DNA of 64,000 bases, taken from the NCBI RefSeq assembly GCF_028368995.1, contig NZ_JAQNDL010000005.1, positions 224,001 through 288,000 on the forward strand, read 5' to 3'. Made by a program: the position numbers and the translations under genes. The notes beneath the pieces were generated by a model, which saw only the letters and a program-made list of their open reading frames with translations, did no database searches and had not been told where the DNA came from. Positions 1,354 to 3,840 of this stretch are shown here, in pieces. Position 1 is the first letter of the stretch; each line of letters starts with the position of its first letter. Source of the DNA: Nannocystis bainbridge. GTDB taxonomy: Bacteria > Myxococcota_A > Polyangia > Nannocystales > Nannocystaceae.

Positions 1354-2070
1354 ATGACTGAACAACGCGAGTACGCCGCCCGAACCAATCTTCACGCGTT
1401 TTATTCTCACAGTCAGCTCTTGATCGTCGCCGAGGGCGAGCTGCCGTCGACCGAGTACGAGATCGACATCGGCCACCAGGCCGGCGAGTCCATCCCGACC
1501 TTCGCCCTCACGCATCGCGCTCGCCCGACCGCCGTCGATGCGCCGCCCAAGGCCACGCCGTTCCGCTACGGCGAGATCTTCAGCATCGGTCGCCCGCCGG
1601 ACGTCATCCGCGTGCGCCACAAAGAGGGCCTCGACGACGTCAACGTCGAGTTCACCCGCGACGACCTCGTCGACATCGTCCTCAGCCTCAGCGGCGGCGA
1701 CGTCGAGGTCACCCTGCCCGACGCCGACGCCGACACCGGCGCATCGATCCCCCCGCCCCCGCCGTCGGGCTTCGACACGCACCCGCCCCCGCGCGAGAGC
1801 TCGGCCCCGGTCGAGTCGCGGCCGCTGACCGCCAGCGAGAAGGCCGGCATCCTCGGCGACATCGCCGTCCGCTACCGCGAGTCGATCGGCTACTCGAACA
1901 AGCTCTCGTTCGACGAGGCCTTCGCCGACGCGCTCAAGAAGCTGCCGCCGCCGTCGGTCAAGTTCCCCGACATGCTCGAGACGGTCGAGGTCGTGCAGAT
2001 CGGCGCGAGCTTCGGCGGCATCGCCGGCTTCCGCCGCCTCGAGGTCCGGATCCGCGCCTACCCGGATTGA
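1354..2070 (+). CDS. hypothetical two-domain protein, Pro-rich linker, C-terminal dodecin-like segment
   Basis: Coding-like GC3 bias; C-terminal ESIGYSNKLSFDEAFADALKKL resembles the dodecin GxSxxSxxxA pattern (weak). Confidence 0.7.
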   Translation: MTEQREYAARTNLHAFYSHSQLLIVAEGELPSTEYEIDIGHQAGESIPTFALTHRARPTAVDAPPKATPFRYGEIFSIGRPPDVIRVRHKEGLDDVNVEFTRDDLVDIVLSLSGGDVEVTLPDADADTGASIPPPPPSGFDTHPPPRESSAPVESRPLTASEKAGILGDIAVRYRESIGYSNKLSFDEAFADALKKLPPPSVKFPDMLETVEVVQIGASFGGIAGFRRLEVRIRAYPD

Positions 2071-2145
2071 CCTGCTTGCATCTGCACCCGCCGCGCGAAA
2101 AGGGGTGCTTCCCAAGCTCCGCGGCCCTGTGGTAGGAACCAGTTC

Positions 2146-2422
2146 GTGCCTTGTGATTCCGTGACAGGAGGGCAGGTCTAGCTCGCTGCTCTGCAGCGGG
2201 GCGGCGTTGCGCCGCCCGAGCGTCTTCCCCACCATCCATCACAAGGAAGGCTATTCCAGAACGTCGCTGATCGTCCGTAGCCCATACGGGCCGCGACGGG
2301 CTGGTTCAACCTCGCCGATCGTGGTTCCGTGCGCGGCCCGTATGGGCTACGGACGGCGAGTTCAGTGAGCCTTCCATGTCCCAGGTCTTGAGGTAGATCC
2401 TCCTTCACAAATCACGATGCAC
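2146..2422 (+). ncRNA. retron-type msr-msd non-coding RNA, copy 1
   Basis: Imperfect terminal inverted repeats (2146-2180 vs 2394-2422) ending in TCTA followed by candidate branch G2181; msr hairpins GCTGC-TCT-GCAGC and GGGCGGCG-TTG-CGCCGCCC; msd hairpin closed by GGAAGGCT/AGCCTTCC with a perfect 24-bp stem 2272-2295/2332-2355; resembles msDNA-Mx162 ends as recalled. Confidence 0.8.
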
Positions 2423-2423
2423 G

Positions 2424-2462
2424 GATGGCCGAGGCGCGACAGCTCCTCGGCCATCGCTTTTT
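2424..2462 (+). terminator. intrinsic terminator after ncRNA copy 1
   Basis: GATGGCCGAGG / CCTCGGCCATC 11-bp stem followed by GCTTTTT. Confidence 0.75.
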
Positions 2463-2479
2463 CTGGTACTGTCCTCTTC

Positions 2480-2750
2480 GTGCTGCGCGTGTGCGAAGGA
2501 GGTCAGGTCTAGCTCGGTGCTCTGCACCGGGGCGGCGTTGCGCCGCCCGAGCGTTCTGCACGTCATTCGTCACAAGGAAGGCTGTTCCAGGATTCACTGA
2601 TCGCCGAGGTACCGGTCGCATCGCGACGGGCTGGTCCAACCTCGCCGATCGAGGTTCCGTGCGCGATGCGACCGGTACCTCGGCGGTGAATCCAGTGAGC
2701 CTTCCATGTCCCAGGTCATGAGGTAGAAAGCTCCTCGCCGCGCACGGCAC
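2480..2750 (+). ncRNA. retron-type msr-msd non-coding RNA, copy 2
   Basis: Same architecture about 330 bp downstream; candidate branch G2512; perfect 24-bp stem 2602-2625/2662-2685 of different sequence from copy 1; compensatory changes in the other stems. Confidence 0.8.
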
Positions 2751-2752
2751 AT

Positions 2753-2807
2753 GCGGCCCCGACGACCTCCCCGCCGCTCGCGGGAGGCCCTCGGGGCCGC
2801 GGCTTTT
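2753..2807 (+). terminator. probable intrinsic terminator after ncRNA copy 2
   Basis: GCGGCCCCGA ... TCGGGGCCGC stem followed by GGCTTTT. Confidence 0.55.
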
Positions 2808-2874: not shown

Positions 2875-3840
2875 ATGGGTACCGCCACCCACTCGCGGCC
2901 TCCGCGAGAACGCGCCCGACGCGCTCTACGCGTCGCTCTCGTCCTCAACCTCGCGTTCCTCGGGCTCGAGACGGTCTTCGCGTTCCTCAGCGGCTCCCTG
3001 GCCCTGCTGTCCGACGCGGCGCACATGGTCAGCGACGTCGCGGCCCTCGGGCTGGCCCTGCTCGCCGCCGAGTTCGCCCTGCGCCCGGCCGTCCAGGGCC
3101 GCACCTACGGGTTCGCCCGCGCCGAGGCCCTCGGCGCCTTCGCCAACGCCCTGTTCCTCGCGTTCGCCTGCGCCCTCATCGTCCACAGCGCGATCGGCCG
3201 CCTCAGCACCGGCGACACTCACTTCGAGCCCGAGCCCGTGCTGGTGGTCGGCACCGCCGGCCTCGTCGTCAACCTCGCCTCGGCCTGGTACCTCGCGCGC
3301 AGCGGCGGCGACAACCTCAACATCCGCGGCGCGCTCATCCACATGCTGGCCGACGCGCTCGGCTCGCTCGGGGCGATCGTCGCCGCCGTGCTCGCCTCGA
3401 CCTGGGCGATCCACGCCGCCGACTCGATCCTCAGCCTGGGCATCGCCGTCCTGGTCCTCTTCAGCGCCTGGGGCGTGCTGCGCGACGCGACCCGGGCCCT
3501 CCTCGATTTCGCCCCGACCCACCTCCCGCAGGAGCGCGTCGAGGCCGAGCTGCGCGCCGTGGCCGGGCTGTCGGAGATCCACGAGCTCCACCTGTGGAGC
3601 ATCGGCGGCTCGCCGGTGCTCACCGCCCACCTGGTCCCGCAGCCCGGGGTGGCCCCCGGCGACCTGCTGGCCCGCGCCGAGCACGTCCTGCGCGAGCACC
3701 TCGGCGTCGTCCACACGACCCTGCAGATCGACGACCCCGGCCCGTGCGCGCAGCGGCGCTGCCCGCTGTTCGACGAGCAGCTGGCGAAGATCCACACCCA
3801 CGGTCACGCGCACGGTCACGGTCACGGCCACGCGCACTGA
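2875..3840 (+). CDS. cation diffusion facilitator (CzcD/ZitB-like Zn/Co/Cd exporter)
   Basis: SLALLSDAAHMVSD, RTYGFARAE, NLNIRGALIHMLADALGS, IHELHLW, HTTLQ motifs; His-rich C-terminal tail. Confidence 0.92.
   Translation: MGTATHSRPPRERARRALRVALVLNLAFLGLETVFAFLSGSLALLSDAAHMVSDVAALGLALLAAEFALRPAVQGRTYGFARAEALGAFANALFLAFACALIVHSAIGRLSTGDTHFEPEPVLVVGTAGLVVNLASAWYLARSGGDNLNIRGALIHMLADALGSLGAIVAAVLASTWAIHAADSILSLGIAVLVLFSAWGVLRDATRALLDFAPTHLPQERVEAELRAVAGLSEIHELHLWSIGGSPVLTAHLVPQPGVAPGDLLARAEHVLREHLGVVHTTLQIDDPGPCAQRRCPLFDEQLAKIHTHGHAHGHGHGHAH

What the first reader, a model, noticed from the sequence alone, without database searches (positions are those of the whole stretch)
2128..2807. Tandem pair of orphan retron msr-msd units with completely covarying msd stems and no reverse transcriptase
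Seen: two units of about 275 nt, about 330 bp apart. Each has terminal inverted repeats (a1/a2-like) whose pairing ends at TCTA just before an unpaired G (2181, 2512), two short msr-like hairpins including GGGCGGCGTTGCGCCGCCC, and a long hairpin closed by GGAAGGCT/AGCCTTCC. The central 24-bp stem is perfect in both copies but differs in sequence (CGTCCGTAGCCCATACGGGCCGCG vs CGCCGAGGTACCGGTCGCATCGCG). The 36-nt apex differs at only 2 positions. Other stems also covary (GCTGC/GCAGC to GGTGC/GCACC; GAACGTCGC/GCGAGTTC to GGATTCAC/GTGAATCC), which indicates selection on structure. Established: retron ncRNAs have this layout. The reverse strand (ACCTGGGACATGGAAGGCTCAC...GAATAGCCTTCCTTG) resembles my recollection of Myxococcus msDNA-Mx162 ends (ACCTGGGGCACGGTAGCCTCAC...GAACAGGCTACCTTG), and I recall msDNA-like chromosomal repeats being reported in Nannocystis exedens. 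Inference: the flanking genes are a hypothetical protein and a CDF exporter, with no RT or effector nearby. These look like stand-alone templates reverse-transcribed in trans, a diversified msDNA repertoire from one RT (e.g. several phage-sensing decoys or antitoxins).
Basis: partly seen in the sequence, partly recalled or inferred. Interest (0 to 1): 0.92.

Follow-up and report, generated by a model that had tools for sequence, protein, structure and literature searches.

The report
Unlinked tandem retron template RNA genes
Two side-by-side genes for retron template RNAs sit millions of bases away from the reverse transcriptase operon they most likely serve, an arrangement first glimpsed in Nannocystis in 1997 and here tied to its probable partner genes.

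Summary
Window 2150-2415 and 2480-2745 hold two ~265-nt units, 330/331 bp apart. Each has the full retron msr-msd layout: a1/a2 flanking repeats, an invariant G in TCTA-G-C opposed by an invariant G, two small hairpins, and a long hairpin whose 24-bp core is perfect in both copies but different in sequence.

No RT lies nearby. The genome does hold a complete type XIII retron operon (HEAT-ARM, HEAT-ARM, SWIM, 433-aa RT) on another contig, with no template RNA of its own.

The same element occurs in three arrangements:
- at the head of that operon in Planctomycetota, Verrucomicrobia and Bradymonadales records;
- between SWIM and RT (the classic position) in three myxobacterial relatives;
- unlinked in Nannocystis and its kin.

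In a 151-genome phylum sample, the element and the operon's 2,000-aa protein occur in exactly the same 11 genomes. Soil metatranscriptome contigs of ~185-204 nt cover each unit and not the flanks.

Best reading (0.8): relocated, duplicated msr-msd genes used in trans by the 433-aa RT. This most likely corresponds to the published Retron-Nex1 (Ne160) locus. msDNA synthesis itself is not shown here. The orphan tandem arrangement is already known; the operon link and the cross-phylum family appear to be additions.

The parts
1354..2070 (+). 238-aa ORF of no known family; conserved immediate upstream neighbour of the unlinked elements
   Evidence: ORF list. No Pfam, PADLOC or NCBIfam hit. Found directly upstream of the element in Nannocystis and in more distant loci at 50-94% aa identity. 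Found in 13 of 41 relatives: the 12 that hold the element by BLAST, plus a weak partial hit in G023.
2130..2134 (+). TGGTA motif about 47 nt before the priming G; the same motif lies at 2464-2468 before unit 2. Possible -10-like promoter element (inference only).
   Evidence: Conserved at the left end of the 23-unit alignment. The consensus promoter scan called nothing.
2154..2180 (+). Unit 1 a2 arm, which pairs with a1 at 2394-2415 and ends in TCTA
   Evidence: Duplex -37.2 kcal/mol against -24.4 +/- 4.1 for shuffles. Pairs 44-49/281-288 and 54-57/277-280 in the consensus fold.
2181..2181 (+). Unit 1 candidate priming (branching) G in TCTA-G-C, opposed by G2393
   Evidence: CAGGTCTAGCT is invariant in 23 of 23 units, and GTAG at the a1 side is invariant. 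The G-to-G span is 211-213 nt in 43 of 55 family members.
2185..2217 (+). Unit 1 msr hairpins: GCTGC-TCT-GCAGC (2185-2197) and GGGCGGCG-TTG-CGCCGCCC (2199-2217)
   Evidence: Hairpin 1 covaries (GC:15, CG:7 at pair 63/74) and hairpin 2 covaries at pairs 79/95 and 81/93.
2236..2393 (+). Unit 1 msd, the template of a predicted msDNA of about 155-160 nt read from the minus strand. Closing stem 2245-2252/2368-2375, perfect 24-bp core 2272-2295/2332-2355, 36-nt apex 2296-2331.
   Evidence: The minus strand folds as a DNA hairpin at -57.7 kcal/mol, z -10.0. Model R1 scores 166.3 bits.
2394..2415 (+). Unit 1 a1 arm (starts TAGA)
2424..2462 (+). Terminator-like hairpin (arms 2424-2437/2442-2455, 93%) followed by TTTTT, after unit 1
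   Evidence: I6. Not called by the consensus terminator scan.
2480..2511 (+). Unit 2 a2 arm, which pairs with a1 at 2724-2745
   Evidence: Duplex -34.4 kcal/mol against -29.3 +/- 4.3 for shuffles, which is weak in this copy. Orthologues reach -38.8 and -40.7.
2512..2512 (+). Unit 2 candidate priming G, opposed by G2723
2516..2548 (+). Unit 2 msr hairpins: GGTGC-TCT-GCACC (2516-2528) and GGGCGGCG-TTG-CGCCGCCC (2530-2548)
2567..2723 (+). Unit 2 msd: perfect 24-bp core 2602-2625/2662-2685 of a different sequence, 36-nt apex
   Evidence: DNA fold of the minus strand -62.6 kcal/mol, z -12.2. R1 scores 157.8 bits.
2724..2745 (+). Unit 2 a1 arm
2753..2807 (+). Terminator-like hairpin (arms 2753-2771/2782-2800, 89%) followed by CTTTTG, after unit 2
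   Evidence: I4. Not called by the scan.
2875..3840 (+). CDF cation exporter gene; an unrelated downstream neighbour
   Evidence: Cation_efflux E 9.8e-37, ZT_dimer E 2.6e-8

Best explanation
The two units are independently transcribed genes for retron template RNAs (msr-msd) of the type XIII, Mx162-like kind. They have been moved away from their operon and duplicated in tandem.

Proposed mechanism:
- Each transcript folds through its a1/a2 ends.
- The 433-aa type XIII RT, encoded on contig C1 in the operon HEAT-ARM (1120 aa), HEAT-ARM (2230 aa), SWIM (636 aa), RT, binds the msr part.
- It primes on the 2'-OH of G2181 or G2512 and copies the msd from about 2393 (2723) leftwards.
- This yields two hairpin msDNAs of about 155-160 nt with the same ends and apex but different 24-bp stems.

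Status of each step:
- Shown here: the anatomy, the covariation, the homology to operon-linked elements, the co-occurrence with the operon, and the presence of discrete RNA-library contigs.
- Inferred: priming, msDNA synthesis, which RT does it, and whatever the msDNA-protein complex then does. The function of type XIII systems is unknown.

The locus most likely corresponds to the published Retron-Nex1 (Ne160).
For: 1. Anatomy.
- a1/a2 arms differ in sequence between units yet pair. All 24 units gave a duplex, most 2-4 sd below shuffles. Of the 55 usable family members, 45 have z < -2.
- The TCTA-G-C motif and the opposing G are invariant in 23 of 23 units.
- The G-to-G span is 211-213 nt in 43 of 55.

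2. Covariation.
- 36 of 77 pairs and 32 of 48 pairs show double changes.
- In the variable helix, 22 of 23 pairs covary and almost none are G-U. That is what a stem needed in both RNA and cDNA would show.
- Both minus strands fold as DNA hairpins, z -10 and -12.

3. A partner without a template.
- The genome has two RT_XIII genes (E 4.6e-186 and 3.1e-159).
- The 517-aa RT has its own adjacent msr-msd (21-nt a1/a2 at 95%).
- The 433-aa RT overlaps the SWIM gene, and its operon has no element upstream or inside.

4. Linkage elsewhere.
- The same element lies 150-300 nt upstream of the first HEAT-ARM gene of the same four-gene operon in 4 fetched operons from other phyla. It lies directly upstream of that gene in 9 of 52 motif loci.
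- It lies between SWIM and RT in 3 relatives.
- RT433 is 62-68% identical over its full length to the operon-head RTs, against 46% to the 517-aa RT.

5. Co-occurrence.
- In 151 genomes of the phylum, model R1 hits 11. The 2,000-aa HEAT-ARM family hits at E = 0 in the same 11 and in no other.
- Among 41 relatives, three operon-positive genomes that BLAST had missed were predicted to hold the element, and they do. An operon-negative control does not.

6. Expression.
- Two RNA runs from two studies hold stand-alone contigs of 204/203 nt (2197-2397, 2525-2727) and 185/190 nt (2199-2383, 2525-2714).
- The flanks have zero cover in these runs, while two DNA runs cover everything.

7. Literature.
- A review (passages read) says Retron-Nex1 (Ne160) has duplicated msr-msd repeats without an RT within a kilobase.
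- The named N. exedens DSM 71 record holds the same pair.
Against: - No msDNA, branch point or RT dependence was observed. Contigs cannot give strand or true ends, and RNA libraries can carry DNA.
- A contiguous RT, part of the usual definition of a retron, is absent here.
- Unit 2's a1/a2 duplex in this genome is only about 1 sd better than shuffles, and 10 of 55 family members fail z < -2.
- The promoter and terminator scans called nothing.
- One same-genus genome (G002, 88% complete, 790 contigs) has operon fragments but no element.
- Co-occurrence among kin is not independent evidence.
- The 517-aa RT cannot be excluded as a user of these templates.
- The equation with Ne160 rests on one review sentence and a predicted length. 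The 1997 paper was not held.
Confidence: 0.8

Rival explanations
1. The units are structured small RNAs that work with the HEAT-ARM/SWIM/RT system, or with the neighbouring 238-aa protein, as RNA only: a scaffold or regulator that is never reverse-transcribed.
For: - Only RNA-library contigs were seen, and no DNA product.
- The element keeps a conserved protein-coding neighbour in the unlinked lineages.
- A type VI retron that makes little msDNA is described in a preprint, seen in a search listing only.
Against: - Every sequence-level retron feature is present, including the opposed G residues and a fixed G-to-G span.
- The variable stem avoids G-U pairs, which an RNA-only stem would tolerate.
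- Homologues sit in the classic msr-msd position before an RT.
- Dispersed half-hairpin copies whose right ends stop before a1 fit a DNA product.
Confidence: 0.08
2. The templates are used by the other retron RT of the genome (517 aa, C1:2369633-2370271 region), or by both RTs, and not specifically by the 433-aa RT.
For: - Both RTs are type XIII.
- With filters off, model R1 finds its best hit in the two RT loci exactly on the msd of the 517-aa RT's own retron (19.4 bits, E 0.002). The two template families are therefore distantly alike.
Against: - The 517-aa RT has its own adjacent template.
- The element co-occurs with the four-gene operon of the 433-aa RT.
- The 433-aa RT, not the 517-aa one, is the close relative of the RTs physically linked to this element.
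Confidence: 0.1
3. The pair is a decaying relic: retrotransposed or duplicated copies of a former retron template that no longer function.
For: - Partial solo copies of the hairpin are scattered in this genome at 6 places and in relatives.
- The 1997 title, seen as a reference entry, speaks of possible retrotransposition.
Against: - The full-length pair is kept at the same locus in 9 of 10 genomes of the genus.
- Every stem change is compensated.
- Core motifs are invariant across phyla.
- RNA-library contigs cover both units.
- The operon has no other template.
Confidence: 0.04

Closest known systems
Retron-Nex1 (msDNA-Ne160) of Nannocystis exedens (Lampson & Rice 1997, as summarised in Simon et al. 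2019, PMC6868368)
   Same: - Duplicated msr-msd repeats with no RT within a kilobase, in the same genus.
- The named N. exedens DSM 71 record carries the same tandem pair with the same two stems.
- The predicted msDNA of about 155-160 nt fits the name.
- Dispersed msDNA-like fragments are present.
   Different: - The original paper and its sequence could not be read, so identity is inferred.
- The window comes from another species of the genus.
- In the text I could read, there is no link to the HEAT-ARM/HEAT-ARM/SWIM/RT operon and no mention of the cross-phylum family.
Type XIII retron systems (Mx162, Mx65, Sa163, Ne144; Mestre et al. 2020, PMC7736814)
   Same: - RT_XIII, SWIM_XIII and HEAT-ARM_XIII proteins are present in the genome.
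- The template has a1/a2 arms, a priming G and a long msd hairpin.
- Homologues of the element sit directly before a type XIII RT in three relatives.
   Different: - Retrons are described there as an RT with a contiguous ncRNA gene (abstract). Here the ncRNA genes are unlinked: 3.2-8.9 Mb from the operon in four relatives where both lie on one contig.
- There are two ncRNA genes.
- In other phyla the element sits about 12 kb from the RT, at the operon head.
The genome's own canonical retron (517-aa RT with adjacent msr-msd, L034 2783-3014, Ne144-like in size)
   Same: - Same RT type.
- Same overall template layout.
- Weak but correctly placed match of model R1.
   Different: - The template is contiguous with its RT.
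- The G-to-a1 span is 189 nt against 212.
- The msd stem is 15 bp.
- There is no BLAST-level similarity to the orphan units.
Engineered retron arrays and trans-supplied ncRNAs used in genome editing
   Same: One RT serving several separately encoded templates.
   Different: Those are laboratory constructs (search listing only). This would be a natural, conserved case.

Membership tests
Retron msr-msd ncRNA | Inverted repeats a1/a2 at the two ends of the transcript that pair with each other | tested here: met
   Sequence-different but pairing arms in 24 units. Consensus pairs 44-49/281-288 and 54-57/277-280. 45 of 55 usable family members have z < -2. Unit 2 of this window is weak, about 1 sd.
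Retron msr-msd ncRNA | Conserved priming G at the inner end of a2 (commonly in TAGC), opposed by a G at the inner end of a1 | tested here: met
   TCTA-G-C and G-TAG are invariant in 23 of 23 units. The TAGC context is named in the review. [quoted passage not shown] 2 legend. Branch formation itself was not tested.
Retron msr-msd ncRNA | msr stem-loops followed by a long msd hairpin | tested here: met
Retron msr-msd ncRNA | RT gene contiguous with the ncRNA gene | tested here: not met
   There is no RT in the flanks here or in any same-genus locus. It is met by homologues in G023, G024 and G039, and loosely (about 12 kb away, same operon) in four other-phylum genomes.
Retron msr-msd ncRNA | RT-dependent synthesis of branched msDNA | not testable with these tools
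   Only contigs of public runs were available.
Type XIII retron system | Clade-10/RT_XIII reverse transcriptase with SWIM and HEAT/ARM partners in the genome | tested here: met
   RT_XIII E 3.1e-159; SWIM_XIII E 9.1e-194; HEAT-ARM_XIII E 0 for both large proteins.
Type XIII retron system | The element is physically or phyletically tied to that system | tested here: met
   Operon-head or SWIM-RT position in other genomes. Same 11 of 151 genomes. Prediction test in relatives.
Retron-Nex1 (Ne160) | Duplicated msr-msd repeats without an RT within 1 kb, in Nannocystis | tested here: met
   Review passage
Retron-Nex1 (Ne160) | Sequence identity to the published msDNA-Ne160 and a 160-nt product | tested here: inconclusive
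The predicted product is about 155-160 nt, from G2393 to about 2234-2239 (inference).
Any Rfam family (6S RNA, msr, others) | Match at or above the family's gathering score | tested here: not met
   15 matches at E up to 10, all far below gathering, mostly miRNA hairpin models. Control: RT-adjacent type XIII templates also get no Rfam match, so this says nothing against a retron.

The most novel reading that the evidence does not exclude
A natural split, multi-template retron. One type XIII operon (two giant HEAT-ARM proteins, a SWIM protein and an RT) is served in trans by two or three separately transcribed template genes.
- Their msd stems are free to change in sequence but are held strictly Watson-Crick, so one cell makes several distinct msDNAs.
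- The template gene behaves as a movable module found in three positions: before the RT, at the operon head, or unlinked.
- The family spans Myxococcota, Planctomycetota and Verrucomicrobia.
Probability: 0.5. Interest if true: 0.6.

Novelty: already known. Interest (0 to 1): 0.45.

Why it matters
Retrons are usually defined and searched for as an RT with a neighbouring template RNA gene. This locus shows that rule failing in nature. The template genes lie megabases from the operon in a whole genus and about 12 kb from the RT in other phyla. Surveys that scan a few hundred bases around the RT would therefore call such systems template-less.

It also offers a natural example of one RT apparently serving several templates with different stems. 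That is of practical interest for multiplexed retron tools.

Finally, it gives a concrete handle on the still unknown function of type XIII systems: two defined msDNAs, one RT and three partner proteins. The basic observation in Nannocystis dates from 1997, so the value lies in these additions, not in the finding itself.

Tried and rejected
Rfam:
- The search at permissive thresholds gave only sub-threshold miRNA-type hairpin hits. A control on RT-adjacent type XIII templates was equally silent. Rfam therefore cannot decide membership.

Promoter and terminator scan:
- The consensus scan found nothing. The terminator-like hairpins and the TGGTA motif are read by eye only.

Literature:
- The two primary papers (PubMed 9157251 and 12459273) and Rice & Lampson 1995 (PMC176553) are not held.
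- A search for 'Ne160' returned only unrelated papers among the 15 listed of 21.
- 'Nannocystis' + 'msDNA' returned only the 2019 review.
- I found no statement in Mestre et al. 2020 about distal or unlinked templates. Its supplementary figures and tables, which are closed, may bear on this.
- The hypervariable-domain idea for myxobacterial msd, and the idea that mismatched msDNA titrates mismatch repair, are recalled and come from no call.

The 238-aa upstream ORF as a system component:
- It is unrelated to the ORFs upstream of operon-head elements.
- It is absent from genomes with the SWIM-RT arrangement.
- I treat it as a syntenic neighbour of unknown meaning.

DNA runs X2 and X9:
- They gave no clear excess depth over the msd, so they offer no support for or against msDNA.

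RNA contig ends:
- The 5' ends at 2197/2199 and 2525/2525 in two studies could reflect a stop at the branch or a break in the assembly graph. This is a weak hint only.

A remnant element in the RT433 operon:
- A 13.8-bit R1 hit inside the SWIM gene of the RT433 operon (L132 2583-2662, E 0.05) is taken as noise.

Script error:
- My script mis-anchored 7 of 62 rows (negative or 172-nt spans). These were dropped before the count.

Tools not used:
- Structure prediction, complex prediction, the protein atlas and the large protein searches were not used. No claim here needs them.
Full report
**What is there.** The region 2128-2807 lies between a 238-aa ORF (1354-2070) and a CDF exporter gene (2875-3840; Cation_efflux E 1e-36). 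It holds two units in direct repeat, 331/330 bp apart. Each unit reads, 5' to 3' on the plus strand:
- an arm ending in TCTA;
- a G (2181; 2512);
- a 5-bp hairpin that differs by a compensated change between the units;
- the shared hairpin GGGCGGCG-TTG-CGCCGCCC;
- a spacer;
- a long hairpin closed by GGAAGGCT/AGCCTTCC, whose 24-bp core is 100% complementary in both units but different in sequence, around a 36-nt apex that differs at two positions;
- the motif CCCAGGTC;
- a G (2393; 2723);
- an arm starting TAGA that pairs back to the first arm.

A hairpin followed by a T-run comes after each unit, although the consensus scan does not call either one. Both units fold far better than shuffles (z -6.8 and -10.2).

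**Selection on structure.** The pair is present in 9 of 10 genomes of the same genus. Two copies, further apart, are present in two sister genera.
- On 23 units, RNAalifold predicts 77 pairs, 36 of them with compensatory changes.
- The central helix has at least ten different sequences, every one fully paired.
- On 46 msd parts from many lineages, 94.8% of cells are paired, against 72.4% in shuffles and 32-44% when the partner is slid.
- In that set, 22 of 23 pairs of the variable helix covary, and G-U pairs are almost absent there.
- G-U pairs do occur, and are conserved, in other helices.

Strict Watson-Crick pairing in the variable part is what one expects if the complementary DNA strand must fold too. 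The predicted msDNA strands do fold as DNA hairpins (z -10.0 and -12.2). A mutational route, in which imperfect palindromes are corrected by template switching, could also keep the arms perfect. I cannot separate that from selection.

**Retron features.**
- The a1/a2 arms differ in sequence from unit to unit and still pair.
- The G after TCTA and the G before TAG are invariant in 23 of 23 units.
- The distance between the two G residues is 211-213 nt in 43 of 55 usable family members (7 of 62 rows were mis-anchored by my script and dropped).
- The review by Simon et al. (passages read) gives TAGC as the commonest context of the priming G.

**No RT here, but a template-less RT operon elsewhere.** The genome has five RVT_1 matches. 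Three are identical 636-666-aa frames that I did not study. The other two are retron RTs of PADLOC type XIII.
- The 517-aa RT has a classic msr-msd just upstream: 21-nt a1/a2 at 95% and a 15-bp msd stem.
- The 433-aa RT overlaps the end of a 636-aa SWIM_XIII gene. That gene follows two HEAT-ARM_XIII genes of 2230 and 1120 aa.
- Nothing like the element lies upstream of, or within, this operon, even when every position is scored with the covariance model.

The pair (contig C5) and the operon (contig C1) are on different contigs. In four relatives where both lie on one contig, they are 3.2 to 8.9 Mb apart.

**The link.** An exact-pattern scan of one genome per species, using a 21-nt motif from the 3' side of the msd, found 52 loci.
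- The records are named as Nannocystis exedens DSM 71, N. pusilla, N. punicea, N. radixulma, other Nannocystaceae, Polyangia and 'Myxococcales' MAGs, and Bradymonadales.
- They also include Planctomycetota (Gemmataceae, Pirellulaceae, Planctomycetaceae) and Verrucomicrobia, plus some MAGs labelled Enterobacterales whose labels I doubt.
- Nearly all show the whole architecture with new stem sequences.

An RT lies within the 8-kb locus in only 1 of the 52. Even so, all five non-Nannocystis genomes that I tested hold a strong RT_XIII. In four of the five it is on the same contig and strand, about 12 kb downstream. The DNA between is the same operon: element, a protein of about 1,085-1,106 aa, one of about 2,094-2,153 aa, a SWIM protein of about 620-653 aa, and an RT of about 431-454 aa. 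The element sits directly before the first gene in 9 of the 52 loci.

In three relatives (G023, G024, G039), a covariance model of the msd part (R1) finds more divergent copies exactly between SWIM and RT, the textbook msr-msd position. G023 has two further copies after the RT. These RT-adjacent copies carry the GGTAGGCT/AGCCTACC version of the closing stem.

RT433 is 62-68% identical over its full length to the operon-head RTs, 49-52% to the SWIM-RT ones, and 46% to the genome's 517-aa RT.

**Co-occurrence.** In a sample of 151 genomes of the phylum, R1 hits 11. The 2,000-aa HEAT-ARM family hits at E = 0 in the same 11. Six other genomes give only weak partial hits (E 1e-21 to 1e-28) and have no element.

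Among 41 relatives, the operon protein is found in 16. Of the four operon-positive genomes without a full element by BLAST, three turned out to hold it when searched with R1. The fourth is a fragmented 6.6-Mb assembly. An operon-negative control had none. Kin are not independent, so this is a consistent pattern and not a statistic.

**Expression.** Of 24 public runs listed, 20 hold part of the stretch, six of them RNA runs. I laid four of these runs.
- Two soil or rhizosphere RNA runs from different studies each give one short stand-alone contig per unit: 204 and 203 nt at 2197-2397 and 2525-2727, and 185 and 190 nt at 2199-2383 and 2525-2714, with 0-4 differences.
- In both RNA runs the flanking stretches 2000-2185, 2403-2495 and 2744-2900 have no cover.
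- Two DNA runs cover the whole stretch.

Contigs cannot show strand, true ends or level, and DNA can contaminate RNA libraries. This shows presence of both units as discrete, enriched molecules in RNA libraries, and no more than that.

**Literature.** Simon et al. [quoted passage not shown] Mestre et al. 2020 (PMC7736814, passages read) place Mx162, Mx65, Sa163 and Ne144 in type XIII with SWIM and HEAT/ARM partners, including a variant with two HEAT/ARM genes. They say type XIII tracks the 16S tree. They looked for structured RNAs upstream and downstream of the RT start. I could not see whether distal templates were noted, because figures and supplements are not available.

From the G-to-G span I estimate msDNAs of about 155-160 nt for the pair and about 140 nt for the 517-aa RT's retron. 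These fit the names Ne160 and Ne144. This is inference.

**Dispersed fragments.** Six partial copies of the hairpin lie elsewhere in this genome, and many more in relatives.
- Right-half copies run through the 3' arm and stop between positions corresponding to 2382 and 2392, never entering a1.
- Two left-half copies start at the equivalent of 2237-2239.

These limits are close to the predicted msDNA ends. They fit the retrotransposition idea in the 1997 title, but I did not analyse their insertion sites.

**Verdict.**
- The units are type XIII retron template genes, relocated and duplicated. Most probably they are used in trans by the 433-aa RT.
- The core phenomenon is already in print for this genus.
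- I could not find three things in the searchable literature: the identification of the partner operon, the three alternative positions of the template gene, and the spread of this nearly invariant element with free-running, perfectly paired stems across three phyla.
- The function of the system remains unknown.

Noticed in passing
window 1354-2070: A 238-aa ORF of no known family lies directly upstream of the unlinked element in Nannocystis and in more distant Nannocystaceae-like records (50-94% aa identity). It was found in 13 of 41 relatives: the 12 that carry the element by BLAST, plus a weak partial hit in G023. It was not found beside operon-head or SWIM-RT elements.
   Followed up: partly
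G000 C1:725766-725827, C1:1154788-1154847, C1:1547849-1547925, C1:3879045-3879120, C2:867074-867134, C2:1810524-1810559: Solo half-hairpin fragments of the msd are dispersed in the genome, and many more occur in relatives. Two right-half copies begin with letters that match the reverse complement of the left side of the apex, as if strands had been switched within the stem.
   Followed up: partly
L034 2783-3014 (G000 C1:2370915-2371146, minus strand): A second, canonical type XIII retron: SWIM gene, msr-msd with 21-nt a1/a2 arms and a 15-bp msd stem, then a 517-aa RT. The predicted msDNA is about 140 nt, Ne144-like in size.
   Followed up: partly
L132 781-1005 (G000 C1:3253280-3253504): A tandem array of 5.9 copies of a 38-nt unit (84% matches) lies just downstream of the 433-aa RT gene.
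   Followed up: no
G000 C1:3394425-3395066, C2:1697652-1698293, C3:907422-908063: Three RVT_1 matches with identical scores in open frames of 636-666 aa. They are probably copies of one mobile element, such as a group II intron.
   Followed up: no
L128-L131 against L132: The 433-aa RT is 62-68% identical to RTs of Planctomycetota, Verrucomicrobia and Bradymonadales records, and a 21-nt stretch of the element is letter-identical across these phyla. This suggests horizontal spread of the whole system, which contrasts with the vertical inheritance reported for type XIII.
   Followed up: partly
L155 2448-2906 and 4697-4842; G183 C234:9362-10153; L096 3783-4300; L083: Several copies of the template per genome are common in the family. 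G023 has three with three different stems, one before and two after the RT. G183 has three in tandem. L096 and L083 have two in tandem with identical stems.
   Followed up: partly
L100 1-105, L109 1-87, L110 1-72: Three metagenome contigs begin inside the element, with G/C-rich low-complexity sequence where the stem should be. This looks like assembly breakdown in the long hairpin.
   Followed up: no
run X7 laid on window 2233-2268 and 2346-2376: In one soil RNA run, contigs that match only the conserved shoulders of the msd and skip the variable stem have depths of 466-750, against 16-29 for the exact units. Relatives with other stems therefore seem abundant in that RNA library.
   Followed up: no
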